Shown piece after piece: positions 1 through 13,680 of a stretch of 64,000 bases of DNA. Location: assembly GCF_055900595.2 (NCBI RefSeq), contig NZ_CM148325.1, one strand, 5' to 3'. A program made the translations under genes and the position numbers. Under the pieces are notes generated by a model. The model saw nothing but the letters and a program-made list of their open reading frames with translations. It was not told where the DNA came from and did no database searches. Every line of letters begins with the position of its first letter. Positions within the stretch are counted from its first letter, which is position 1.

Positions 1-1927
<1,927 letters not shown>

Positions 1928-2104
1928 TGGAGCACCTCAAAAACACCATCATACACTAAATCAGTAAGTTGGCAGCATCACCAGACACTTCTACAGTTAC
2001 CTTGCGGATGGAGATGCAGTCGACAAATTATTAGCTCTGACGGTATAACCCTCCATCTCCACGGAAAACGCAAAACAGCACAAGTCCTGAATGCTTTAAG
2101 CGTA

Positions 2105-3248
2105 GTGACTCTGTTCATAGTTATCGTCGGCGCCGGATACAGCATCTACCCTGCTCAGGGCAGACGCTATGGCTTGTATTTTCCGTCCGCCACTGGTACT
2201 GCCGTAACCCGGCTTGTTCACGTAAAATTTTTGCCGGGTCGCTTGCCCCCTTCGCCGGTTCACTCCCAGCATTCTTCACAGGTGTTACAAAATTTACAAC
2301 ATCAACTGGGATTAATAGCCGGAGGTGAGGCCGGGAAACAGGCAGCAACGGCAGTGGGGCTCCGTTGCAGTGCTGATACTCTTCTTCGCAGGGTTATTAA
2401 TACCCCGGAGACGAAACAGTCGGGCGCGCCTCATGTCGGTATTGATGAGTGGGCGTGGCATCGGGGCCACCATTACGGCACGTTAATCGTCAATCTTGAT
2501 ACTCACCGTCCCCTCGTCCTGCTTCCCGGTTGCGATCAGAGTACGCTGGCGACCTGGTTCAGAAAATATCCGGAAATACAGGTTGTCTCACGTGACCGTG
2601 GCGGAGTCTATGCGACAGCAGCACGTGAAGGTGCACCTCAGGCCAGACAGATAGCTGATCGATGGCACCTGCTAAAAAATATTGGCGATGCGCCTGAACG
2701 AATGATGTACAGACAGATGCCTCTGATACGTCTTGTTGCCAGTGGGTTGTCACCAAAGAAATCACCTAAGCCAGTACTGTCTGTGCCTGTAGCATCGCTC
2801 CGTCGTCCGGAACGCCTTAAACAGCAAACCCGCCAAAAACGGCATCAGCGTTGGACAGAGGTTATGGCACTACATAACAAGGGATGTGGGTTCAGGGGAA
2901 ATATCCCGTATTACAGGCTTATCCCGTATTACAGGCTTATCACGTGTGACAGTCAGTCTCTGGGTGTGTTCAGGAACATTCCCTGAAATGTCAACCCGGC
3001 CTCCAGAGCGAGGACTTCTGGACCCATGGAGGGAGTGGTTAAAAGAGCAACGAGAAAGTGGTAACTTCGGCGCGTGGCTGCAAGGATGGCAGCTGATGCT
3101 GCGGCTATATGTGAGGCAATCAGCAGTCGCTGGAATAATGGGGGGTGTCGAAAGTCATGTAAATTGGCTAAAAATGCTGAAAGGCCAGATGTATGGTCGA
3201 GCCGGATTTGAACTACTCAGGCAGAGGGTCATGAGTCCACTGGCATGA
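2105..3248 (+). pseudogene. ISL3-family transposase, frameshifted and lacking N-terminal zinc-ribbon region
   Basis: Two overlapping frames (2105..2986 and 2886..3248) together resemble ISL3-family transposases (VGIDEWAWHRGHHYGTLIVNLDTHRPLVLL ... RWHLLKN ... C-terminal GRAGFELLRQRV); N-terminus absent, region upstream is IS1. Confidence 0.7.
2904..2939 (+). repeat. Perfect 18-bp tandem duplication (TCCCGTATTACAGGCTTA x2) inside the ISL3-family transposase pseudogene
   Basis: Direct reading of sequence; gives IPYYRL IPYYRL in one frame. Confidence 0.9.
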
Positions 3249-3274
3249 AAATCTCCATCCAGGTTGCGGAAGAG

Positions 3275-3296
3275 CCACTTTTCATCCGTCGTTGAC
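3275..3296 (+). repeat. 22-bp motif CACTTTTCATCCGTCGTTGACA, copy 2, immediately after a GGTTGCGGAAGAGCC stretch downstream of the ISL3-family transposase
   Basis: Exact identity with 1553..1574. Confidence 0.9.
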
Positions 3297-4083
3297 AGCT
3301 TGGGGGGTAGTGCATCTGTACCTCTAGGTCAAAGGAGGTATTCATATCCATATTAACGACTTGAATATGTTGACAGTACTGATTCAGATTAACGAAAAAC
3401 GACCGAGCTTCTCTACTACGCACCTCACCTATCCAGAGGATTGATGAGTATCCGCATCGGCTACGACGGTGCGTAACGATGAGCTTTGAACAGGGCAAAC
3501 TCTTTCATGACCCGGCCTTGGCAGTACATCAATCAGACCCTGTGACCTCTATTTGCAACTGACGTTTGTCGATAGTATTGATGATATGCTAGTGCAGGGT
3601 AAGAAATTACGAAATATGTTTAATCGGCAAGATTTTGAGTAACGCCTCAACATGCTCAATGAGTCATGTGGTCTGATGAGCATAAGGCTTTAGCCAGCTG
3701 ATATAATCCCGAACTATGCCGTAGTTAGGGCAAAGAATGCGGTAGACGGGTAGGCGTAACTGAACTGGAAATACCAGTATTGTTCATTACGATAAGGTGC
3801 GAAGTGAAGCATCGTGAACGGCTTTAGCCTGTTTGCCACAAGAGTAATGACCGTTTTCAATCGGTTTTAGGTGGATGATGAGGGGGATTTTACTCAGTAG
3901 GGACGACGTCAAAGCCTATCCAGAGATAAATGGAAAAGATAGTATTCGAAATTGAGAACGGTTGGGGTTGGTTATCGTTCTGTTTTAGCAACTAAACAAT
4001 AACTCCCCAACCGTTATCATTTCCAGCCCACGATAATCTGCAATGAACATTAAAAATTCACGGCGGCGGTCGCTTTCCTTAAT

Positions 4084-5046
4084 TTACGTCTCCTCTTGGG
4101 AGTGGATAATATGGGTGCCTGTTTCGCCACGCAGTGCCGCGGACAGGCATTCAGGCGTGGTGATAATCACTCTTTTACCTCCACGTTCCAGGAACTCCAG
4201 ACTGGCAAGAATCTTCGGTAACATACTCCCAGGCGGGAAGTGACCCTCCTGCATGTAACGGGCCATCGTTAGGACATCCACTGTATCCAGTGCATGCTGG
4301 TTGGGTTTCCCAAAATGAATACTCACTTTTTCCACGCCGGTGGTGATCACCAGAATGTCGGCGTGAATTTCGCGAGCCAGTAGCGCGCTAGAGAGATCTT
4401 TGTCGATAACCGCGTCCACGCTTTGGTAATCCCCTGCGTCAGTACGCACCACCGGAATGCCACCGCCGCCCGCGCCAATCACCACAAAGCCTTGCTGGAT
4501 CAGAGTCTTAATGGCAGGTGCTTCGACAATACGTTTCGGTTCCGGCGAGGCGACCACGCGGCGATAGCCCCGTCCGGCATCTTCAACAAAACGCCAGTCA
4601 GGGTTTGCCTTTTGTAGTTCATCACGCTGGTTTTCACTAAAGAATGCACCGATGGGCTTGGTGGGATGGACAAACCCCGGATCGTTTTTATCCACTTCCA
4701 CCTGAGTCACCACGGTGACGGCTTTTTTCTCGCCGTGAGGCGCCAGCCGGTTGTTCAGCGCCTGCTGGATCAGATAGCCAATGCCGCCTTGCGTATCCGC
4801 CACACAGTTCGCCAGCGGCGTTAAGGGTAGCCCTTCGCGCTCGTGGGCTATCTCCGCGCGGCGTAAATCCAGACCGACCTGCGGCCCGTTGCCGTGGGTC
4901 AGCACAATGTCGTAATCGGAAGCCAGCATTTCCAGAACCGTATCGGCGACGGCCTTCACCGCCTCCGCCTGATGCTCAATCGACTGGCTGGCGTTATCTT
5001 TGATAATGCTGTTGCCACCAATGGCAACGACCACAAGTTCTTTCAT
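4084..5046 (-). CDS. yahI: Carbamate kinase-like protein (yahI-type)
   Basis: 320 aa, begins MKELVVVAIGGNSI, carbamate kinase fold motifs (THGNGPQVG, GAGGGGIPV); terminal gene of yah-type cluster. Confidence 0.8.
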   Translation of the reverse strand: MKELVVVAIGGNSIIKDNASQSIEHQAEAVKAVADTVLEMLASDYDIVLTHGNGPQVGLDLRRAEIAHEREGLPLTPLANCVADTQGGIGYLIQQALNNRLAPHGEKKAVTVVTQVEVDKNDPGFVHPTKPIGAFFSENQRDELQKANPDWRFVEDAGRGYRRVVASPEPKRIVEAPAIKTLIQQGFVVIGAGGGGIPVVRTDAGDYQSVDAVIDKDLSSALLAREIHADILVITTGVEKVSIHFGKPNQHALDTVDVLTMARYMQEGHFPPGSMLPKILASLEFLERGGKRVIITTPECLSAALRGETGTHIIHSQEET

Positions 5047-5072
5047 AGAATTATCTTCCGTTTGCAGGCTAT

Positions 5073-6623
5073 TCAGGTCGTTTTAGTCTCTTCCTGCTCA
5101 GACGCAGCCACTGTTTCACGGCTATCAATAACATGCTTGAGGGCAAACATAGCAAGCATCATCAGGTAGGCCACAACAAACACAATCGAGCTGCCTTCCG
5201 CAAAGCCAACCGCTGGGGAGTGAATCACGCCAAACAGCGATAACAGTGCTCCAAAGGATGCAGCTATCGCCCCGCGCAGCGGCTTATTCATAATGGCAAA
5301 GATAGCAATGCATCCCCACAGCATGCTGGCCAGCGGTGCACCGCTTCCCAGATGCATCAGTCCATCGTAATAGACGCCTTTGCTGTGCAACAGGTCGCTA
5401 CCAAGTTTCTCAGCGGATGTTCCGGCTGCGCCCATCACGCTGTTAACGATGGTCAATGCCCAGTTGGCGACCCATGGGAACAGACAGATGAAAATGACGG
5501 GAACCTCGACTTTAGGAGTTTCTCGCACCACCTGATTGGCGGTTACCACACCGATAAAAACCAGAATTGGCACTATAGCAGTCATGGGAATAATGGCGAG
5601 CATAAACGCGCCCAACCCAAACAATGGCACCAGAAACATAGTGATGCCTGATGCGAGGGTATAGCAGATACTAGCGCCCATAGCTTTCCAGCCTGCATGC
5701 CCAACATATACGGTTACCGGGAACGGATTACCCAGCATGCAACCGAGCATGGAGGCAAAGCCGTTCGCCATCATGACCTTACGGGTGTTGTATTCATCAC
5801 CAGCCGCGTGCGCACTTTCAATGTTCTCGAGGTCAAAAATGTAGTTAGCCAGGCCCAAAGGAACTGCAGAAGCCAGATATGGCAGAGCGTGCGGCAAACC
5901 TTGCAGGAAGCTCCTTACATGAATTTCCGGCGGGTTGAAGCCGAAGGAAGACATCGACGCTTTAATGTCTTCCGGGCTTTGTAAACCGGATATCCACGCT
6001 AGGGACGTACCAGCAATCAGCAACAGCAAACCGGTAGGAATATGGGGAAAAATCGGCTTCTTACCGAACCAGTTAATGAAGATCAATAACAGGACGATGA
6101 AAGAAACTGTCGGCGCTTCGAACGCTTGCAGCATCGGGTTCATTGCCAGCAGTAATAACCCCAGTCCGGACAGACAAGAAAGCAGCACTGTACGCGGGAT
6201 CATCTTGCGGATAGTCTCACCCAGGAAGGAGCCACCGACCAGGATCAACGCTTCGACAAAGCACCACACCAATCCTATCTGAATAGCAAAGTTGGCATCT
6301 TTGGTTTGCTGATAAACCGGCATCAGCACCAGGAATGTCACGGTAAAGATTGAGGGTGCGCTCGGTCCAGACGGCAGCGCCGTTACATCGCTACGACCGG
6401 TTTTCTTCACCATCTGTAGACCAAACCAGGAGTAGCAGACACTGGCCGCCAGCACTGCAAGACCAAAGGCAGGCGCAATGCGTCCATAGACAATTTCAGT
6501 AGGGATTCCGACGACAAAAATTAGCAGACCCATCATTGTCAGCAGGTTAGTCAGATTGTTGGTCATCAGTCCAAAGTAAGCCGCCCAGTCACCACGTTTC
6601 CATTCTAGTTTTATGCTGTTCAT
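5073..6623 (-). CDS. Polytopic membrane permease (nucleobase/AzgA-like family suspected)
   Basis: 516 aa, highly hydrophobic with many predicted TM helices; sits between DUF1116 and carbamate kinase genes. Confidence 0.65.
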   Translation of the reverse strand: MNSIKLEWKRGDWAAYFGLMTNNLTNLLTMMGLLIFVVGIPTEIVYGRIAPAFGLAVLAASVCYSWFGLQMVKKTGRSDVTALPSGPSAPSIFTVTFLVLMPVYQQTKDANFAIQIGLVWCFVEALILVGGSFLGETIRKMIPRTVLLSCLSGLGLLLLAMNPMLQAFEAPTVSFIVLLLIFINWFGKKPIFPHIPTGLLLLIAGTSLAWISGLQSPEDIKASMSSFGFNPPEIHVRSFLQGLPHALPYLASAVPLGLANYIFDLENIESAHAAGDEYNTRKVMMANGFASMLGCMLGNPFPVTVYVGHAGWKAMGASICYTLASGITMFLVPLFGLGAFMLAIIPMTAIVPILVFIGVVTANQVVRETPKVEVPVIFICLFPWVANWALTIVNSVMGAAGTSAEKLGSDLLHSKGVYYDGLMHLGSGAPLASMLWGCIAIFAIMNKPLRGAIAASFGALLSLFGVIHSPAVGFAEGSSIVFVVAYLMMLAMFALKHVIDSRETVAASEQEETKTT

Positions 6624-6735
6624 GGAATCTCCTTAACAGGTTAAGCATCGTTTGCGATCATGGAGATCGCCCAGCCCTGAAGGTAAACAACGTTTTCCGC
6701 TACTGTGGGGCTAACTGCGTTAGCCCCGGTTATTG

Positions 6736-8154
6736 TTATTGGCAGTAGTGGTCACGCCAGTTGAGGATCGCCTTTTCAAAACAAGTGAACGGCGGGTGAA
6801 CAATTCCTGCGCCGATCATGCCGATCCCTGCGTCTTTGTGCGCAATGGCTGTGTTAATTACCGGCAGAATGCCTGTACTGCCTACACGCGTAATATCGAT
6901 AGCGGTCGGTACGCCCATAAAACCAAGCAGGGGAATGGTGACGTTGGGGTTTTCTCCGAGAGTGATTTCTCTCATTTTACGTGAGAAATCAATAGCTTCC
7001 TCAACTGTTCCGCCCACCAGTGACACAATAGCTGGTGCCGTCGCCATAGCGAAACCGCCAACGCCGTAGGTTTCGGTAATTGCACTATCACCGATATCAC
7101 GTCCGGAATCCTCTAGCTTATAGCCCGCAAACATCGGCCCAATCACCTGCTGCGCCGGACCGGTAAACCACTTGCCCGGCAAACCGCTAATACGAAGACC
7201 GAACTCAACACCATTGCGTGCCATCGTTGTCACCACGGTGCTGTATTCAATGCCGTGCGCAGCGTCCATTGCGGCTTTACACATTGCCATCCATGTTGGT
7301 CCTGAGAAGTAATCACTACTGAGGACAAACTCGAACACCTCACGCTGCTGCTCAACAGGGTAGCCAGTCTGAATAATCCACGGCGTCAGCGTCTGAATCA
7401 GCAGCGCCGTCCCGGCGTTGTTGCGGTTATGGCACTCATCGCCCATATGCAGCGCCTGCGCTAACATCAAGTGCAGATCGATTTCGCCCGCCAGCTTCAT
7501 AGCATCGCGCAACATAGGTCCCAGTACATCTCGCATCCAGTTAAGACGCTCTATAACGCTCTGGTCGTTAGCGCCCATACGCAGGATCTTTGCCATCTGC
7601 TCGCTCATATTGGTATATGCGCGGTTTCCATAGGTTTTGTTCTCGACGATGTGCATAAACATCGATGCAGACGTGACACCCGCCATTGAGCCGACACAGT
7701 CATGTTCGTGGCACGGAGAGAAGATGATTTCACCTGAAGCAGCTAGTTCGGCGGCATCATCCAGATCTTTCGCCAGTCCTTCAAATACCAGAGCCCCGGT
7801 TACTGCGCCCTTCATTGCGCCGCACATTTTTTCCCAGTGGATTGGCGGCCCGGCGTGAAGGATAGTGTTACGGGTCATACCCGGCACGACGTTGATCGCC
7901 TGATCATAGCCAATTAGCACAGGATGCGACTGGATAATGCGTTCCAGCGCCAGCTGATTAGCAGCTGCAATTTTGTCTGCCAGTGGTGAAGCGGCAATGT
8001 CGTCCAGTGCCGTTACCACTTGTATGTTTCCTTGGCCTGGCGGTGTCCAGTCAAGTTGGGTTACCGGTACATTCTGCTTTTTCATGTCATCGCTGAACAT
8101 TTCGATACCGACATTAATAACGTTCAGCGGCTGATTAAACAGTGTCTGGCTCAT
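6736..8154 (-). CDS. yahG: DUF1116-family protein (yahG/ylbE-type)
   Basis: 472 aa; stop/start coupled with upstream FdrA-like gene at 8154; length and context match yah cluster. Confidence 0.7.
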   Translation of the reverse strand: MSQTLFNQPLNVINVGIEMFSDDMKKQNVPVTQLDWTPPGQGNIQVVTALDDIAASPLADKIAAANQLALERIIQSHPVLIGYDQAINVVPGMTRNTILHAGPPIHWEKMCGAMKGAVTGALVFEGLAKDLDDAAELAASGEIIFSPCHEHDCVGSMAGVTSASMFMHIVENKTYGNRAYTNMSEQMAKILRMGANDQSVIERLNWMRDVLGPMLRDAMKLAGEIDLHLMLAQALHMGDECHNRNNAGTALLIQTLTPWIIQTGYPVEQQREVFEFVLSSDYFSGPTWMAMCKAAMDAAHGIEYSTVVTTMARNGVEFGLRISGLPGKWFTGPAQQVIGPMFAGYKLEDSGRDIGDSAITETYGVGGFAMATAPAIVSLVGGTVEEAIDFSRKMREITLGENPNVTIPLLGFMGVPTAIDITRVGSTGILPVINTAIAHKDAGIGMIGAGIVHPPFTCFEKAILNWRDHYCQ

Positions 8155-9701
8155 CAGCCTTCCTCCCCTTTAAATATAAATTCACGTGCCAGTAATCCGG
8201 TGTTGGTGCTACTGCTTGCCCAAATAACCCCGGCATCGGTCAACATCTGACACTGTTTTTTCAGCGACGGTGTATCAAGGTCGGTTCCCAGCACATAGCC
8301 GAGGATCTCAAGCGGGCGACCGTCTGCGGCAGCAATTTCTTTGGCTTCAACAATTGTATCCAGCATCACTCCAACCGGATCTTCATGTGATCCAAATCCA
8401 AGAATGAAGTCCATCACGATCACGCCAACTTCAGGATCCTGTGCTTCCTGCAAGAGCCGGGTAATGCGATTGGTGGGATCGATCATCGGATGTGGTTTGC
8501 CGTTGGTAAAATAATCATCGCCGAAATCGAGGAAGGTATGCGCCACGCTACGGTTGAGATCTGTAAGGCGGAACGCCGGATTCGGGTGAATATTGCTATA
8601 CACATCCGAGAGTTTTTCCATGGCAGTAAACATCGCTTCATCGCATAACGTGCCACCACAGAACAGGCCACGGATATACTTTTGTTGTGGAGTCAGACGG
8701 GAGCGAACCTCTTCAATCAGCTGCCAGTTGAGCGGATGCAAATCCAGACTCTCTTTTTTCACACCAGTCAACAGTACCGCTTTCAAGGCAGCCTCTTTAG
8801 TACCGCGGGCAAACTGTAGGCCTTCTTCATCCGCAGGGGTGGACTCACGTCCGAGGAAACACACCACCACAGGCTTGTGACAGGTGCGCGCACGTTCCAG
8901 CACCTTACGGGCTACCGCTGGTGCAGGAGGTTTGGATATAAGCGTAATGATCTCAGTTTGTGGATCGGCCTCCAGCATGCTAATCGCGTCAAGCATCATC
9001 AGGCCGCCAATTTTTTCACTCATATCGCGTCCACCTGTCCCAATCAGCTGGGAAATCCCGCCGCCAAATTCGTGAATGCGTACGCTCAGCTCCTGGCTAC
9101 CCGTACCGGAGGCACCAATGATTCCGATGTTGCCGCGACGCACTGCATTGCCAAAACACAACGCTGCGCCGTTAATGATGGCGGTTCCACAATCAGGCCC
9201 CATCATCAACAACCCTTTTTCATGTGCCAGATGCTTGAGTTCCAGCTCGTCCTCAAGAGAGACGTTGTCAGAAAACAGCATAACATTGAGGTTATTTTGT
9301 AGTGCCTGACGAGCTTCACGAGCAGCAAACAGGCCATTGACAGAGATCACCGCCAGATTACTCTCTGGAGCATGCTTCTTCGCACTGGCAATCGTGGCAT
9401 AGCGTGCTTCGTGCTGGCCTCCCTGTTCTTTATGCGCAAACAGCTCATCAATCGCTATTAGCGTCCGCTCGTTCGCCTCCTCGCTGGTACCTTTAATGAC
9501 AATCATCAGATCGCCACTTTTCGCCTCTTCCAGCTCAGGGGTCAGCAGACCGAGATTCTTCAGCACCCCCTTATTCATCTCTGTCGCCATAGCAACAAAT
9601 GCCTGCTCAACTCCATCAAGCTTATTTGCGCGCGTGGAGATAGACATCAGTGAAACAGAATCAAAATACGTGTTTTTTTTTACAACTATCCTGATTGACA
9701 T
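8154..9701 (-). CDS. yahF: FdrA-like acyl-CoA synthetase (NDP-forming)/succinyl-CoA synthetase alpha-like protein (yahF-type)
   Basis: 515 aa, begins MSIRIVVKKNTYFDSVSLMS; CoA-binding/ligase-like glycine-rich motifs. Confidence 0.8.
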   Translation of the reverse strand: MSIRIVVKKNTYFDSVSLMSISTRANKLDGVEQAFVAMATEMNKGVLKNLGLLTPELEEAKSGDLMIVIKGTSEEANERTLIAIDELFAHKEQGGQHEARYATIASAKKHAPESNLAVISVNGLFAAREARQALQNNLNVMLFSDNVSLEDELELKHLAHEKGLLMMGPDCGTAIINGAALCFGNAVRRGNIGIIGASGTGSQELSVRIHEFGGGISQLIGTGGRDMSEKIGGLMMLDAISMLEADPQTEIITLISKPPAPAVARKVLERARTCHKPVVVCFLGRESTPADEEGLQFARGTKEAALKAVLLTGVKKESLDLHPLNWQLIEEVRSRLTPQQKYIRGLFCGGTLCDEAMFTAMEKLSDVYSNIHPNPAFRLTDLNRSVAHTFLDFGDDYFTNGKPHPMIDPTNRITRLLQEAQDPEVGVIVMDFILGFGSHEDPVGVMLDTIVEAKEIAAADGRPLEILGYVLGTDLDTPSLKKQCQMLTDAGVIWASSSTNTGLLAREFIFKGEEG

Positions 9702-10509
9702 AATTACCTCCGGACCTGTGGCTCAGGGCGCAGGCATCCGCCATGCCATACAGCATGTCGCATCCAGAACTTGAGCCTATATTTTTTATGTCAGTAACAT
9801 ATTGCGTAGAAATGGGTTGTGGCTCAGTAATAAATTGGTTCAGTAGCCGTCCGACTCTTTCCCGATAACGCTGATTAAATGCTTCCTCTAAAGTTATTTT
9901 GCTGAGAAGCGTTATGTTATTTCCTGCAAGTTGTAATGCTGCTAAGAAATCGTATCTATACTTCCTTAGTGGATGTCCTTGAATAAATAAAATAGTGCTT
10001 AAACCTACTAAATAATCATCCGATGATGGCGTCAGCCCTATTCCAAGACCAATTAACTGGTTGACTGCCGCAGTGATGTTTTCTCCTGTACACAACGCCT
10101 TCAGCAAATTTTTTCGGCGGTTGAGTAATTGGCGAGAAATTTCCTGATAAAATGGATTGTCACCCTGGTACAGAAATAATGTGTCGTTGCTTCTTAGTTG
10201 TTGGCGGATAAACTCTTCCCAATGCTGCCAGCCGACTTTGGCAAGGCTTGCTGAATCAGATGTCCACCGTGGTATTCGCCACATCTGACAACCGGTTATT
10301 TCTATCCATTTATCATTTCCAACAGTTATTCCAGACCCGCTAAAATTGACCTGTTCACCGGGGTGAAAAAGGTCTTCATAATGTGTCAGTGCTAAACGAC
10401 AACTGTTAGGTGCGTTATCACAATCCTCACTCAGTAACGTCAGCAGTCGCTGCTGTTCAGGTATTAACAGATTTACCGCATGGGAAAAAACCTGTTCAAC
10501 CTGGCCCAT
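9661..10509 (-). CDS. yahE: DUF2877-family protein (yahE/ylbF-type)
   Basis: 282 aa; overlaps start of FdrA-like gene by 41 bp; position in yah-type cluster. Confidence 0.65.
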   Translation of the reverse strand: MGQVEQVFSHAVNLLIPEQQRLLTLLSEDCDNAPNSCRLALTHYEDLFHPGEQVNFSGSGITVGNDKWIEITGCQMWRIPRWTSDSASLAKVGWQHWEEFIRQQLRSNDTLFLYQGDNPFYQEISRQLLNRRKNLLKALCTGENITAAVNQLIGLGIGLTPSSDDYLVGLSTILFIQGHPLRKYRYDFLAALQLAGNNITLLSKITLEEAFNQRYRERVGRLLNQFITEPQPISTQYVTDIKNIGSSSGCDMLYGMADACALSHRSGGNYVNQDSCKKKHVF

Positions 10510-10594
10510 TCCCCGAAAAGTGAGAAACGCGCAGTCTGCGGTTAGTGCCCGAAAAGATTGCCGTGATAATATAGCGATAATCGTGCTCCTGTTG

Positions 10595-11200
10595 TCAGGC
10601 TCCAGCCGAAATCAGCAACTCGGCAATTTTGTGGTAGCCTTTTTCTCGCGCCAGCTCCAGCGGGGTTTTACCGTATTTATCCGTCATGTGCGGGTTTGCG
10701 CCATGCTCAAGCAACAGTTTGACGATCTCCTGCTGCTTTTCACCGCCGTCATTCAGCACGATGGCCTCTAGGAGCGGCGTCCAGCCAACAAAATTAGTAT
10801 GGTTGACATTGATATCAGTACGCATCAGCAATTCACGTACAATCTCGACATGGCCTTTTTCGCAGGCAGGTGTAATACCAACACCGCCAAAACGGGTTAG
10901 GCAATTAAGGTCGGGGTTAGCCGGTAATACCGTACGCAACAGTGTTAAATCATTATTCAGGCAGCCAATCAGGAAGGGATTAAAACAAGTTTGATCTTGT
11001 TTATTAATATCAGCACCTGCGGAAATCAATAAAGAAACGCAGTCATAATGTTTATTCAGACTGGCAATAATAATTGCAGTACGCCCCTCGCGGTTAGTCG
11101 CATTAATATCAACCTTTTTATCAAGGCATGATTTTAATCCATCGGAATTACCTTGTTCTGCCGCCAGCAGAAATTCTGTAATGAGTTCTTTATTGGACAT
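10595..11200 (-). CDS. yahD: Ankyrin-repeat protein (yahD-type)
   Basis: 201 aa with repeated ankyrin motifs (GRTAIIIASLNKHYDCVSLLISAGADIN, GKTPLELAREKGYHKIAELLISAGA). Confidence 0.8.
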   Translation of the reverse strand: MSNKELITEFLLAAEQGNSDGLKSCLDKKVDINATNREGRTAIIIASLNKHYDCVSLLISAGADINKQDQTCFNPFLIGCLNNDLTLLRTVLPANPDLNCLTRFGGVGITPACEKGHVEIVRELLMRTDINVNHTNFVGWTPLLEAIVLNDGGEKQQEIVKLLLEHGANPHMTDKYGKTPLELAREKGYHKIAELLISAGA

Positions 11201-11587
11201 AATCGATCTCCTGCTCTTTTTAAGATTTTACAAATATAACAAGCCAAGAATAGCAACAGAATGCATAGAGCACCATCCATTTAAAATTTACTCATCATTA
11301 GACCATGAATTATTGAAAAAAAATTAACAATAATAAGAGAGTGTGATATAGTGCAATATTTCTATTATAGCTGGGGATATTTTAGCCATTAATCCGCAGT
11401 CATATAAATAAAGGTGGTCTGCAGCACGGATAGCTGCCTGTAATTAAAATTCAGATGTGTGATTTCCTTCAAATTAAATGTAAATACGGTGTTAATTTTT
11501 TCAAAACTGATTGTCGGTTATAAGAATTACAAATACATTCAACAATCATCATGTTGTGTATGTGTATTATCGCCAGAGGAAAGAAAG

Positions 11588-12517
11588 ATGAATTCAATAT
11601 TTACGGAAGAAAACTTACTGGCATTTACTATGGCTGCCCGCTATAGAAGTTTCAGCAAGGCGGCGAAGGAACTGGGCTTAACCACATCGGCAATTAGTTA
11701 CACTATCAAGCGTATGGAAATGGGGCTTGACGTGGTGCTTTTTACCCGAACTACCCGTAGCATTGAGCTGACCGAGCCCGGGCACTACTTTTTTTGCAAA
11801 GCAACTGACCTGCTCAACGATTACCACTCCATCATACGTAGAGTTGATGCCATCGCTCAGGGAATTAAATCCCGGGTGCGCATTTGTATTAATCAACTGT
11901 TGTATACCCCTCAGCATACAGCTCGGCTTCTGCAAGTGCTCAGGGAACACTTTCCAACCTGCCAGATAGCTATTACTACAGAGGTGTATAATGGCGTCTG
12001 GGATTCACTCATTAATAACCAGGCTGATATCGCCATTGGCGCGCCCGATACGTTACTGGACGGTGGTGGAATTGATTACATTGAAATCGGCATGATTCGT
12101 TGGTTGTTCGCGATTTCTCCGGCTCATCCGCTGGCGTTTATTCCTGAGCCCATTTCTGAGAGTCAGTTACGTCTGTACCCGAACATCATGGTGGAAGACA
12201 CTGCAAACACTATTAACAAAAAAGTCGGCTGGCTGTTACACGGGCAAGAGTCGATTCTGGTTCCCGACTTTAATACTAAGCTTCAGTGCCAGATCCTGGG
12301 GGAGGGAATCGGTTTTCTGCCAGACTATATGGTGCGTGAAGCGATGGAAAAGTCATTGCTGGTGACACGGCAGATCCACAACCCACGTCAGGATTCACGA
12401 ATGCTGTTGGCAACCAGGCATTCGGCAAGCGGTCAAGTCACTCAGTGGATAAAAAGAGAATTTAGCTTACAAGGAATACTGACGGGGATTTATCAGGATT
12501 TGATGCATCGAGCGTGA
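11588..12517 (+). CDS. yahB: LysR-family transcriptional regulator (yahB-type), divergent from the yah cluster
   Basis: N-terminal HTH FTMAARYRSFSKAAKELGLTTSAISYTIKRME; ORF in track starts 11459 but Met at 11588 gives typical 310 aa. Confidence 0.8.
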   Translation: MNSIFTEENLLAFTMAARYRSFSKAAKELGLTTSAISYTIKRMEMGLDVVLFTRTTRSIELTEPGHYFFCKATDLLNDYHSIIRRVDAIAQGIKSRVRICINQLLYTPQHTARLLQVLREHFPTCQIAITTEVYNGVWDSLINNQADIAIGAPDTLLDGGGIDYIEIGMIRWLFAISPAHPLAFIPEPISESQLRLYPNIMVEDTANTINKKVGWLLHGQESILVPDFNTKLQCQILGEGIGFLPDYMVREAMEKSLLVTRQIHNPRQDSRMLLATRHSASGQVTQWIKREFSLQGILTGIYQDLMHRA

Positions 12518-13126
12518 TGCACCGGATGGCAGTTTTACCTTTCGGTGCATCAATGAGATAAATGAAGGGCAATCAGTGAGATAAATGACGAATTGGAGTG
12601 GGTTACATGGGTTCTGGTGAACAGAAATGAAATTCTTTTTCTCTATGTGATAGACAAATCGGGAATTGAAATCATCCCTACAGGCAACTCAGAATCTGGG
12701 GGCTGAAAACGCTACGAACCATCAGATTTGGATAATATTCATCACCGTTTCGGCCTGATTGTATCCAATCTGGAAGAAAAGTTTCATGATTTTATGGGCG
12801 TTATCCTTATGGTGCTGGGCGACGAGAGTAATACTTCACGCCGGTTTTGTCGGATAATCCAGAAATATAGGGGCAAATCCAAACAGGAAAGATAGGGGGA
12901 GGGACGCGTTTCCGGCACAACCAGCGTTACGTCACCCTGCATTGTTAGTTACGAAAAGCGTACCGGAAACGCGGAACATTCTTTTAACACATTACAGGCA
13001 TTCGCACACATCTTTTTTCTTCTTTGTGCTCTGAACACTGCAGTGCTCAATTAATATTAGCCACGTTTTACAGTAAGAACGGTATCTGTTCTCTGATTCT
13101 TCCGGCGTCAACCCACAGTGTAATTA

Positions 13127-13556
<430 letters not shown>

Positions 13557-13680
13557 TCAGTCTGGTAACTATCGTAAACCGTTCAGTGGGGAGGATATCA
13601 AGAGCACTGTAGCTTTTTAATATCGTTTTTTGTTCCTCCAGGCGACGAACCTGCTTTTCCAGCTCATGAATACGTTGCTA

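What the first reader, a model, noticed from the sequence alone, without database searches (positions are those of the whole stretch)
4084..12517. yah-type cluster (putative oxamate carbamoyltransferase-like genes) carrying a full-length permease
FdrA-like, DUF1116, DUF2877 and carbamate kinase-like genes parallel the fdrA-ylbE-ylbF-ybcF set implicated in oxamate/carbamoyl-phosphate metabolism. A 516-aa permease sits between the DUF1116 and carbamate kinase genes, and an ankyrin protein and LysR regulator flank the cluster. Substrate and role are not established.
Basis: partly seen in the sequence, partly recalled or inferred. Interest (0 to 1): 0.4.

Follow-up and report, generated by a model that had tools for sequence, protein, structure and literature searches.

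The report
Mobile yah-type carbamoyl-catabolism cluster with permease
This is a horizontally acquired, IS-carried second copy of the uncharacterised E. coli "yah" gene cluster. It still carries the transporter that the native chromosomal copy lacks, which makes it a better starting point for finding out what these genes break down.

Summary
The LysR gene most likely starts at 11588, not 11459.

This is not the native chromosomal yah locus. It is a Citrobacter-like xenolog (about 85% nucleotide identity to Citrobacter, about 82% to the E. coli chromosomal yah locus). It is bounded by IS debris and found at 99.8% identity or more in 141 of 5,426 complete E. coli genomes, mostly on IncF conjugative plasmids of poultry isolates.

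The permease is an ancestral core gene of yah-type clusters. In 80 of 80 genome loci from four bacterial classes it sits next to the same enzyme genes. The E. coli chromosome has only a REP array ("yahH") at that position. The permease has a 7+7 UraA-type fold but matches no Pfam, NCBIfam or PDB sequence model, so the "xanthine permease" label is unsupported.

The mobile copy lost yahJ, a Tat-signal amidohydrolase, apart from an 11-codon stub. Its kinase gene carries an Escherichia-like recombination patch.

The likely function is inferred only: uptake of a carbamoyl compound, phosphorolysis to carbamoyl phosphate, and ATP plus ammonia via carbamate kinase. The substrate is unknown. It is a new member of a known but uncharacterised kind, of moderate interest.

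The parts
4050..4083 (-). 11-codon 5' stub of yahJ (reads IKESDRRREFL, with ATT in place of ATG). Homology to Citrobacter chromosomes ends at 4050.
   Evidence: The blastn boundary to L003, L004 and L007 is at window 4050. The sequence was read directly. Full-length YahJ begins MKESNSRREFLSQ, a twin-arginine signal (PMC7549933).
4084..5046 (-). Carbamate kinase-like gene (YahI-like, 320 aa). It is mosaic: about 4330-5046 is Escherichia yahI-like and 4084-4330 is Citrobacter-like.
   Evidence: Family matches: Pfam AA_kinase; NCBIfam NF009007 at 629 bits; PDB carbamate kinases 1e19 and 1b7b at E = 2e-82 and 5e-71. Mosaic evidence: sliding-window identity; dS of 0.41 to E. coli against 1.0 to C. 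braakii; the patch is 94-96.7% identical to E. coli yahI alleles.
5073..6623 (-). 516-aa permease with a 7+7 inverted-repeat (UraA/SLC26-type) fold, in a family with no curated sequence model.
6624..6735 (-). Intercistronic spacer with a GC-rich hairpin (6706-6728) directly after the DUF1116 stop codon.
   Evidence: Found by the scan and read directly. The hairpin is kept through different sequences in Atlantibacter, Providencia, Pantoea and Aeromonas. The spacer is absent in Enterobacter, Leclercia and Trabulsiella (alignment A2).
6736..8154 (-). DUF1116/AllG-like subunit (YahG-like, 472 aa).
   Evidence: Pfam AllG, E = 6e-90. 90% identical to YahG and 46% to AllG. Residues 12-53 resemble the C-terminus of AllF. 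PDB 3clq, E = 2e-192.
8154..9701 (-). FdrA/AllF-like subunit (YahF-like, 515 aa).
   Evidence: NCBIfam FdrA at 490 bits, above the cutoff of 433. 83% identical to YahF and 38% to AllF. PDB 3dmy (E. coli FdrA), E = 1e-83.
9661..10509 (-). DUF2877/AllH-like subunit (YahE-like, 282 aa), the fastest-evolving gene of the set.
   Evidence: Pfam AllH, E = 1e-22. Only 53% identical to YahE. dN/dS of 0.19 against 0.03-0.09 for the other genes. The gene is missing from Enterobacter- and Leclercia-type clusters.
10595..11200 (-). Ankyrin-repeat protein (YahD-like, 201 aa) with no signal-peptide-like N-terminus.
   Evidence: Pfam Ank families. 72% identical to YahD. It is kept in the cluster across phyla: 62-63% identity in Brevibacillus and an Ank-TPR fusion in Bosea. 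The N-terminus was read.
11201..11587 (.). Divergent regulatory region between the ankyrin operon and the LysR gene. Two sequence blocks (about 11244-11367 and 11453-11548) are conserved across genera.
   Evidence: Alignment A3 of nine Enterobacterales loci. Promoter-like hexamers occur on both strands, but no more often than in shuffled sequence.
11588..12517 (+). LysR-type regulator (YahB-like, 309 aa).
   Evidence: Pfam HTH_1 + LysR_substrate. 85% identical to YahB. The best NCBIfam models are AllS (266 bits, cutoff 372) and PunR (233 bits, cutoff 345); both are below cutoff.
1..3511 (.). Left-flank IS debris: IS100 (istA partial, istB 726-1508), an IS1 fragment (1563-1927), a frameshifted ISL3 transposase (2027-3248) and a transposase fragment (3304-3511).
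   Evidence: Pfam DDE_Tnp_ISL3. RefSeq annotation of identical sequence in L086, mapped with an offset of 5501.
13203..13832 (-). Right-flank IS3-family transposase fragment. Homology to Citrobacter ends at about 12545.
   Evidence: Annotation of L086 and L087. Boundary. The flank is 99.6-99.8% identical in plasmid and chromosomal copies.

Best explanation
Window 4050-12545 is a mobile, xenologous copy of the yah-type gene cluster.

SHOWN
- It was captured from the chromosome of a Citrobacter-like enterobacterium.
- The capture cut yahJ at about codon 11-12.
- The segment is now carried between IS elements. On poultry-associated IncF plasmids it is cargo of an IS1 composite transposon of about 15.6 kb. 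In some strains it lies in chromosomal islands.
- After arrival, the 5' three-quarters of its carbamate kinase gene was replaced by Escherichia yahI-like sequence.
- The permease is a conserved core gene of yah-type clusters and is missing from the native E. coli locus.

INFERRED (from homology to the characterised AllFGH and AllK proteins and from conserved gene linkage)
- The LysR protein activates the divergent ankyrin-to-kinase operon when an effector is present.
- The 7+7-fold permease imports an N-carbamoyl (ureido or acyl-urea) compound.
- The DUF2877, FdrA-like and DUF1116 proteins form a phosphorolytic carbamoyltransferase that releases carbamoyl phosphate. The ankyrin protein may be an accessory or scaffold subunit.
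- The carbamate kinase converts carbamoyl phosphate and ADP to ATP, NH3 and CO2.
- Where present, Tat-signal YahJ (predicted periplasmic) would convert an amino precursor into the transported compound.

The substrate is not identified.
For: ORIGIN AND MOBILITY
- The module is 99.9% identical across IncFIB/IncFIC conjugative plasmids and a few chromosomes, but only about 82% identical to the yah locus present in about 5,000 E. coli genomes.
- The permease gene is in 141 of 5,426 genomes, always at 99.8% identity or more: 105 plasmid and 45 chromosomal places.
- The closest chromosomal loci are Citrobacter youngae, C. braakii and C. werkmanii (permease 94-95% amino-acid identity; collinear over window 4050-12545 at about 85% nucleotide identity).
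- A yahJ stub remains.
- On plasmid pST95-32-2 the block is IS1-bounded. It carries a 9-bp target duplication (CATGCAGGA) and splits a serine acetyltransferase ORF.
- A recombination patch lies in the kinase gene.

FUNCTION
- Pfam AllG and AllH and the NCBIfam FdrA and carbamate kinase models are all passed.
- AllFGH is experimentally the oxamate carbamoyltransferase and YbcF/AllK is the catabolic carbamate kinase (PMC11326118, PMC9843812).
- The Ank, AllH-like, AllF-like, AllG-like, permease and kinase genes are linked in 80 of 80 loci. These come from Enterobacterales, Aeromonas, beta- and alpha-proteobacteria, Brevibacillus and Paenibacillus.
- dN/dS is 0.03-0.19.
- Regulators in the clusters are AllS/PunR-like LysR or PucR proteins. 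Accessory genes are CodA-type or CDA-type deaminases and an allantoin-permease-like NCS1 transporter.
- Herminiimonas carries the same seven genes with no YahJ-type amidohydrolase gene called within 8 kb on either side, so the truncated module can plausibly work alone.
Against: - No biochemical or genetic data exist for any Yah protein, and no paper describes this mobile copy.
- Identity to AllF, AllG and AllK is only 38, 46 and 38%. The AllH relationship is seen only through Pfam. The reaction could therefore differ in kind.
- The DUF2877 gene is missing from many otherwise intact clusters. It may not be an obligatory catalytic subunit.
- The permease fold does not distinguish a nucleobase carrier from an anion carrier.
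- All E. coli copies are near-identical, so nothing shows selection for function since acquisition.
- The module is surrounded by IS debris and has lost yahJ.
Confidence: 0.6

Rival explanations
1. The cluster is simply a second oxamate carbamoyltransferase plus carbamate kinase. It would act on oxalurate from allantoin breakdown and duplicate AllFGHK.
For: It has the same three Pfam/NCBIfam subunit families plus a carbamate kinase. The LysR protein scores best against AllS. A Brevibacillus cluster includes an allantoin-permease-like NCS1 transporter.
Against: Identity to AllF, AllG and AllK is only 38, 46 and 38%, and there is no blastp match to AllH. The LysR protein is below the AllS cutoff (266 against 372 bits). 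E. coli keeps separate all and yah loci. yah-type clusters have their own conserved ankyrin, permease and deaminase genes and no allB, allC, allD or allE neighbours.
Confidence: 0.12
2. The module is functionally inert cargo. It would be a truncated pathway fragment that hitch-hikes on IS elements and successful ColV-type plasmids and contributes nothing to the host.
For: yahJ is truncated to 11 codons. The module is flanked by degraded IS copies. All copies are at least 99.8% identical, so there has been no time for selection to be visible. One chromosomal copy has an IS50R annotated within the matched span, with the match split into two pieces (H21).
Against: All seven ORFs are intact at full ortholog length. 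The regulatory region keeps the blocks conserved across genera. A natural cluster without YahJ and with the same gene set exists in Herminiimonas. The module persists in both plasmid and chromosomal contexts.
Confidence: 0.15
3. The FdrA-like protein is a true acyl-CoA synthetase, as many records annotate it. The cluster would activate an organic acid with CoA, and the kinase would serve another role.
For: Pfam CoA_binding and Ligase_CoA domains are present, with similarity to succinyl-CoA synthetase alpha chains (E = 1e-10 to 1e-17).
Against: The family member that has been characterised (AllF) works as a carbamoyltransferase subunit (PMC11326118). No beta-subunit (ATP-grasp) partner gene is in the cluster. 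A pattern search for GH[AS]G / H[AS]GA, the form I recall from memory for the succinyl-CoA synthetase alpha phosphohistidine site, found nothing in the window protein, YahF or AllF. That is a crude test. Linkage to a carbamate kinase is invariant.
Confidence: 0.08

Closest known systems
E. coli K-12 chromosomal yah locus (yahB, yahC / yahD-yahE-yahF-yahG-[yahH]-yahI-yahJ)
   Same: Same gene order and orientation for LysR / ankyrin, DUF2877, FdrA, DUF1116 and carbamate kinase. Proteins are 53-93% identical. Both are functionally uncharacterised.
   Different: The native locus has no permease. A REP/BIME array (the 'yahH' ORF) fills that gap and shows no detectable permease remnant. The native locus has yahC (DUF1097) and full-length yahJ; the window has neither. 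The window copy is IS-bounded and mostly plasmid-borne.
Citrobacter (freundii-complex) chromosomal yah-type cluster, e.g. C. braakii ATCC 51113 and C. youngae CCUG 30791
   Same: Collinear including the permease, the intercistronic hairpin and the regulatory region. Proteins are 80-96% identical.
   Different: Nucleotide identity is only about 85%, so no sampled species is the actual donor. Citrobacter has a complete yahJ after the kinase. The window's kinase gene carries an Escherichia-like patch.
AllFGH oxamate carbamoyltransferase + AllK carbamate kinase (E. coli allF operon; PMC11326118, PMC9843812)
   Same: Same three subunit families plus a carbamate kinase in one operon. This is the only biochemically defined model for what the enzymes do.
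   Different: These are distant paralogs (38-46% identity). The all operon has no ankyrin, no 7+7 permease and no YahJ-type deaminase. A segment of about 40 residues sits at the C-terminus of AllF but at the N-terminus of the DUF1116 protein here.
Isochorismatase/cytosine-permease-type FdrA cluster (tkt1 island of APEC O1, PMC3349570; GR29 of BEN2908, PMC12928451)
   Same: A third paralogous FdrA, DUF1116, DUF2877 and carbamate kinase set in avian E. coli. It is on the same plasmids about 10 kb away in pACN001-B and pST95-32-2 and adjacent to the yah-type genes in Avibacterium paragallinarum.
   Different: Its accessory genes differ: an isochorismatase-family hydrolase, an allophanate-hydrolase C-terminal-domain protein and an NCS1 cytosine permease. 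Identity to the window proteins is about 48%.
NCS2/NAT (UraA, UapA, SVCT1), AzgA and SulP/SLC26 transporters
   Same: Same 7+7 inverted-repeat fold, with short beta-strands in TM3 and TM10 of the model.

Membership tests
yah-type cluster (as in E. coli K-12 yahB-yahJ) | Orthologs of YahD, YahE, YahF, YahG and YahI in that order, with a divergent YahB | tested here: met
   Identities of 72, 53, 83, 90, 93 and 85% over full length, in the same order and orientation
yah-type cluster (as in E. coli K-12 yahB-yahJ) | yahJ (Tat-signal amidohydrolase) downstream of the kinase | tested here: not met
   Only an 11-codon stub remains at 4050-4083. tblastn with YahJ finds nothing else in the window
yah-type cluster (as in E. 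coli K-12 yahB-yahJ) | Resident chromosomal position (pdeL ... yahK neighbourhood) | tested here: not met
   It is flanked by IS100, IS1, ISL3 and IS3 debris. Identical copies are on IncF plasmids and in a chromosomal island
yah-type cluster, broad sense (across bacteria) | Linkage of the 7+7 permease with the Ank, AllH-like, AllF-like, AllG-like and carbamate kinase genes | tested here: met
   80 of 80 genome loci found through the permease carry the enzyme genes next to it. Pfam-annotated examples are L083, L084, L085 and L089-L092
AllFGH oxamate carbamoyltransferase | Three subunits of the FdrA, AllG (PF06545) and AllH (PF11392) families encoded together | tested here: met
   Pfam AllG at 300.8 bits and AllH at 81.1 bits; NCBIfam FdrA at 490 bits against a cutoff of 433
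AllFGH oxamate carbamoyltransferase | Orthology to AllF, AllG and AllH, and a setting among allantoin genes under AllS control | tested here: not met
   38% and 46% identity and no blastp hit, respectively. There are no all genes nearby. The LysR protein scores 266 bits against the AllS cutoff of 372
AllFGH oxamate carbamoyltransferase | Oxalurate + phosphate -> carbamoyl phosphate + oxamate activity | not testable with these tools
   Requires an enzyme assay
Carbamate kinase | A match to curated carbamate kinase models above cutoff | tested here: met
   NF009007 at 629 bits against a cutoff of 266. The stricter arcC equivalog TIGR00746 scores 345.6 bits against a cutoff of 358.25, just below. 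PDB carbamate kinases match at E = 2e-82
NCS2/NAT nucleobase permeases ('xanthine permease' annotation) | A sequence match to Xan_ur_permease (PF00860) or a curated NCS2 model | tested here: not met
   No Pfam or NCBIfam hit even at E = 10. A profile against PDB sequences gave nothing. hhalign to the NCS2 protein YbbY gave probability 0.1
NCS2/NAT nucleobase permeases ('xanthine permease' annotation) | 7+7 inverted-repeat core/gate fold | tested here: met
SulP/SLC26 anion transporters | Sulfate_transp domain plus a C-terminal STAS domain | tested here: not met
   No Pfam hit of any kind. The model ends in a single helix after the last transmembrane segment
IS1 composite transposon | Two flanking IS1 copies and a target-site duplication | tested here: inconclusive
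   Met on plasmid pST95-32-2: a 9-bp CATGCAGGA repeat on both sides and a split serine acetyltransferase ORF. The window itself holds only part of the left end and no right IS1

The most novel reading that the evidence does not exclude
The plasmid module and the host chromosome complement each other. The module supplies the transporter (plus a second enzyme set) that the native E. coli yah locus lacks. The chromosome supplies Tat-exported YahJ, which the module lost. Together they would rebuild the complete Citrobacter-type pathway and give poultry-associated E. coli an ATP- and ammonia-yielding route for an as yet unidentified nitrogen-rich compound of the uric-acid-rich avian gut. The permease would then be the founding characterised member of a large 7+7-fold transporter family that has no curated model.
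Probability: 0.15. Interest if true: 0.6.

Novelty: new member of a known kind. Interest (0 to 1): 0.4.

Why it matters
The yah genes remain among the uncharacterised "y-ome" genes of E. coli K-12.

This analysis suggests one reason. The K-12 locus lacks the dedicated transporter that accompanies these enzymes in the other bacteria examined, so screens in K-12 may never deliver the substrate.

The mobile copy, or its Citrobacter counterpart, offers a compact, regulator-equipped cassette of about 8.5 kb. It can be moved into K-12 and screened for new nitrogen sources and inducers.

The work also flags three further points:
- a transporter family of at least 2,700 sequence clusters has no Pfam or NCBIfam model, and its "xanthine permease" label is unsupported;
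- an ankyrin-repeat protein is conserved in a bacterial metabolic operon across phyla;
- this metabolic cargo travels with poultry-associated virulence plasmids.

Tried and rejected
1. yahH as a decayed permease: rejected. tblastn and blastn of the permease against the chromosomal yahG-yahI gap found nothing, and that gap is a tandem REP/BIME array.
2. A diverged native permease somewhere in E. coli: rejected. Sensitive blastn finds only the copies at 99.8% identity or more.
3. Assigning the permease to NCS2, AzgA or SulP by sequence: failed. Tried Pfam and NCBIfam at E up to 10, phmmer and a profile against PDB sequences, and hhalign to YbbY. Fold search gives the superfamily only.
4. Bridging through distant relatives: failed. 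10 of 10 remote family members also have no meaningful Pfam hit.
5. Riboswitch or other known RNA in window 3400-13400: none in Rfam at E up to 0.1.
6. Promoter and terminator scans: counts are no higher than in shuffled sequence, so they were used only descriptively.
7. A phosphohistidine-type GH[AS]G / H[AS]GA pattern in the FdrA-like protein: no such string in the window protein, YahF or AllF. The motif form was recalled from memory, so this is crude and not decisive.
8. Literature on the plasmid-borne cluster, on Yah protein function or on YahB targets: nothing specific found.
9. The origin of the 550 bp between the ISL3 fragment and the yahJ stub, and of 12546-13200: no match in any donor-like locus.

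Full report
**1. What is in the sequence**

ORF listing and family scans confirm seven intact genes. On the minus strand they are:
- a carbamate kinase-like gene (4084-5046);
- a 516-aa membrane protein (5073-6623);
- a DUF1116/AllG-like gene (6736-8154);
- an FdrA/AllF-like gene (8154-9701);
- a DUF2877/AllH-like gene (9661-10509);
- an ankyrin-repeat gene (10595-11200).

On the plus strand is a LysR-type regulator ending at 12517. The mechanical ORF from 11459 is over-extended. RefSeq records of identical DNA start the gene at 11588, and the alignment with YahB begins there.

Against a typical E. coli chromosomal yah locus (L002), the proteins are 93% (YahI), 90% (YahG), 83% (YahF), 53% (YahE), 72% (YahD) and 85% (YahB) identical over full length.

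**2. It is not the resident yah locus**

- Window 3500-13000 is 99.9% identical to about 140 complete E. coli genomes. It is only about 82% identical to the yah locus carried by roughly 5,000 others.
- In the plasmid collection, 78 of the 86 records with a match are predicted conjugative. pACN001-B, for example, types as IncFIB/IncFIC. Five matching plasmid records are from Klebsiella.
- The permease gene alone occurs in 141 of 5,426 genomes, always at 99.8% identity or more. That comprises 105 plasmid and 45 chromosomal places. No diverged copy was found at blastn sensitivity.
- In an evenly spaced sample of 30 of these records, 20 come from birds or poultry products. This compares with about 3 of 18 in a similar sample of genomes holding only the native locus. 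The comparison is rough and uncontrolled, and it probably reflects the host range of the plasmids.

**3. Origin and boundaries**

- A scan of species-representative genomes with the permease returned 80 loci. The closest are Citrobacter youngae, C. braakii, C. werkmanii and unnamed Citrobacter species (permease 94-95% identical).
- Nucleotide homology to these chromosomes runs from window 4050 to about 12545 at about 85% and stops at both ends. No sampled species is therefore the donor itself.
- At the left end, the minus strand reads TAA (kinase stop) followed by ATT AAG GAA AGC GAC CGC CGC CGT GAA TTT TTA. This corresponds to the first 11 codons of yahJ (MKESNSRREFL in E. coli and Citrobacter). 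Unrelated sequence follows. The donor therefore had yahJ, and the capture or a later deletion cut it.
- Beyond the boundaries lie IS100, an IS1 fragment, a frameshifted ISL3 transposase and, on the right, an IS3 fragment.
- On plasmid pST95-32-2 the whole block between two IS1 copies (about 15.6 kb) is flanked by a 9-bp direct repeat, CATGCAGGA. It interrupts a serine acetyltransferase reading frame that continues across the insertion. This is the signature of an IS1 composite transposon.
- In strain CFSAN061770 the module lies in a chromosomal island with toxin-antitoxin and antirestriction genes, sodC, an ABC transporter and an S6 autotransporter peptidase.
- The window's right flank matches that island type, and its left flank matches the plasmids.

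**4. A recombination patch**

Synonymous divergence to C. braakii is 0.5-1.0 for all genes. Divergence to the E. coli chromosome is 1.4 or more, except for the kinase gene, where it is 0.41.

Sliding windows show the following:
- window ~4330-5046, the 5' three-quarters of the kinase gene, is 92-98% identical to E. coli yahI but only 71-88% identical to Citrobacter;
- 4084-4330 and the rest of the module are closer to Citrobacter.

Across E. coli genomes the patch is 94-96.7% identical to native yahI alleles. The simplest reading is gene conversion from an Escherichia yahI. The patch ends at the kinase start, where the native locus has REP elements instead of a permease.

**5. The permease is ancestral, and E. 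coli lacks it**

- In the native locus the yahG-yahI gap is a tandem REP/BIME array. The annotated 'yahH' ORF lies inside that array. Neither tblastn nor blastn finds any permease remnant there.
- In all 80 genome loci found through the permease, it sits beside the ankyrin, FdrA-like, DUF1116 and kinase genes, usually with DUF2877 as well. In Enterobacterales the order is the same as in the window.
- These loci come from Enterobacterales, Aeromonas, Herminiimonas, Ramlibacter, Azospirillum, Bosea, Brevibacillus and Paenibacillus (Pfam-annotated examples).
- Conservation is high across phyla: permease 69-72%, DUF1116 71-77% and FdrA-like 61-68% identical between the window and Firmicutes or alpha-proteobacteria. 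DUF2877 falls to 26-30% and is absent from Enterobacter-, Leclercia- and Lelliottia-type clusters.
- No Escherichia genome appears among the 80 best loci.
- The native E. coli locus is therefore a derived form without its transporter. It additionally has yahC, a DUF1097 membrane protein absent from the Citrobacter arrangement.

**6. What kind of permease**

- It matches no Pfam or NCBIfam model, even at E = 10. It matches no PDB sequence, either alone or as a 22-sequence profile.
- An AlphaFold2 model (mean pLDDT 83.6, pTM 0.80) has short strands at residues 85-87 and 303-305. From my own knowledge of these folds, strands at such positions are typical of the 7+7 inverted-repeat transporters.
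- An exhaustive profile search found 2,715 cluster representatives at E up to 0.001 (449 at 1e-30). Ten distant members sampled also lack any meaningful Pfam match.
- The 'xanthine permease' and 'AGZA family' names attached by some sources were therefore not supported by any test run here.

**7. Likely function**

The only biochemical anchor is the all operon. AllFGH (formerly FdrA-YlbE-YlbF) converts oxalurate and phosphate to carbamoyl phosphate and oxamate. YbcF/AllK then makes ATP from carbamoyl phosphate (PMC11326118, PMC9843812).

The window's proteins are distant paralogs of these: 38% to AllF, 46% to AllG, 38% to AllK, and a Pfam-only relationship to AllH. The carbamate kinase assignment is solid (PDB matches).

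One small structural clue links the F and G subunits. About 40 residues at the N-terminus of the DUF1116 protein match the C-terminus of AllF.

By analogy, and given the invariant linkage of transporter, enzyme genes and kinase, I infer the following sequence:
- uptake of a carbamoyl compound;
- phosphorolysis to carbamoyl phosphate;
- substrate-level ATP formation with release of ammonia.

Context supports a nitrogen-rich, nucleobase-related substrate:
- regulators are AllS/PunR-like LysR proteins or PucR proteins;
- the accessory enzymes seen are deaminase-type: the CodA-related amidohydrolase YahJ, or a CDA-fold deaminase in Brevibacillus;
- one cluster adds an allantoin-permease-like NCS1 carrier.

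YahJ has a twin-arginine signal peptide and is listed as a predicted Tat substrate. Its deletion mildly reduced ExPEC fitness in mice, with a competitive index of 0.70 (PMC7549933). It probably acts before transport.

Herminiimonas has the same seven genes as the window, with no amidohydrolase gene called within 8 kb on either side. The truncated module may therefore be self-sufficient for the transported compound.

yahJ itself is present in 5,035 of 5,426 E. coli genomes. Most hosts could therefore supply it.

None of this was tested experimentally, and the substrate remains unknown.

**8. Regulation and other sequence features**

- The 387-bp divergent region holds two blocks that are nearly invariant across Citrobacter, Trabulsiella, Yokenella, Serratia and Buttiauxella. 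They lie at about 11244-11367 and 11453-11548. This is consistent with a conserved LysR-controlled promoter pair.
- Simple promoter scans are no better than chance.
- The 112-nt spacer before the permease gene has a GC-rich hairpin. It is maintained by different sequences in several genera, but the spacer is missing altogether in others.
- No Rfam family matches.

**9. Novelty and verdict**

The genes are annotated in many public records, and the yah operon is a known unknown. My literature searches found no description of the mobile copy or of the permease linkage.

This is a new member of a known but uncharacterised kind. It is not a new kind of system. Its value is practical. It identifies the complete form of the cluster, offers a possible reason why K-12 has been uninformative, and provides a compact cassette for de-orphaning the pathway. 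Interest is moderate.

Noticed in passing
window 4330-5046: The 5' three-quarters of the carbamate kinase gene is 92-98% identical to E. coli chromosomal yahI. The rest of the module is Citrobacter-like. This looks like a gene-conversion patch acquired after transfer into Escherichia.
   Followed up: yes
window 4050-4083: An 11-codon remnant of yahJ keeps the twin-arginine codons, but its start codon reads ATT. Unrelated DNA of unknown origin follows (3512-4049).
   Followed up: partly
window 6706-6728: A GC-rich hairpin lies immediately after the DUF1116 stop codon with no U-run. It is conserved by compensatory changes in several genera. The whole spacer is absent in Enterobacter, Leclercia, Trabulsiella, Buttiauxella and Yokenella.
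   Followed up: partly
window 6736-6900 (N-terminus of the DUF1116 protein): Residues 12-53 match the C-terminal 40 residues of AllF/FdrA. One segment is therefore attached to different subunits in the yah-type and all-type systems, which hints at a physical F-G interaction.
   Followed up: no
L015, L018-L021, L023-L025, L030-L038 and others (Enterobacter, Leclercia, Lelliottia loci): The DUF2877/AllH-like gene is missing between the ankyrin and FdrA-like genes in otherwise intact clusters. It is also the fastest-evolving gene elsewhere (dN/dS 0.19-0.28).
   Followed up: partly
L001 27996-33501; L086 24995-27501: The same plasmids carry, about 10 kb away, a second paralogous set: FdrA, DUF1116 and carbamate kinase with a cytosine permease, an allophanate-hydrolase-related small protein and its own LysR. 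This is the 'tkt1 island' type.
   Followed up: partly
L085 5487-19721 (Avibacterium paragallinarum): In this chicken pathogen a yah-type set (LysR, Ank, FdrA, AllG, permease) lies directly beside the isochorismatase-type set. Only one AllH-like gene and one carbamate kinase gene were called within the 10 kb examined on each side.
   Followed up: no
L086 4813-20388 (plasmid pST95-32-2): An IS1 composite transposon of about 15.6 kb carries the module. It has a 9-bp target duplication (CATGCAGGA) and splits a serine acetyltransferase gene. The left IS1 is itself interrupted by IS100.
   Followed up: yes
L002 5991-6411 (E. coli chromosome): The annotated gene yahH lies entirely within a tandem array of REP/BIME elements between yahG and yahI. 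It is probably not a real gene.
   Followed up: partly
window 15112-29012: Downstream island cargo includes sodC (15112-15636), a four-gene ABC transporter, a glycerophosphodiester phosphodiesterase, a ROK regulator, an AbgT-family transporter and a 1,291-aa S6-family autotransporter peptidase (25137-29012). It matches chromosomal islands of chicken E. coli.
   Followed up: no
L084 11685-12917 (Bosea): In alpha-proteobacterial clusters the ankyrin protein is replaced by a 410-aa ankyrin-TPR fusion. A repeat-protein partner therefore seems to be a constant of the system.
   Followed up: no
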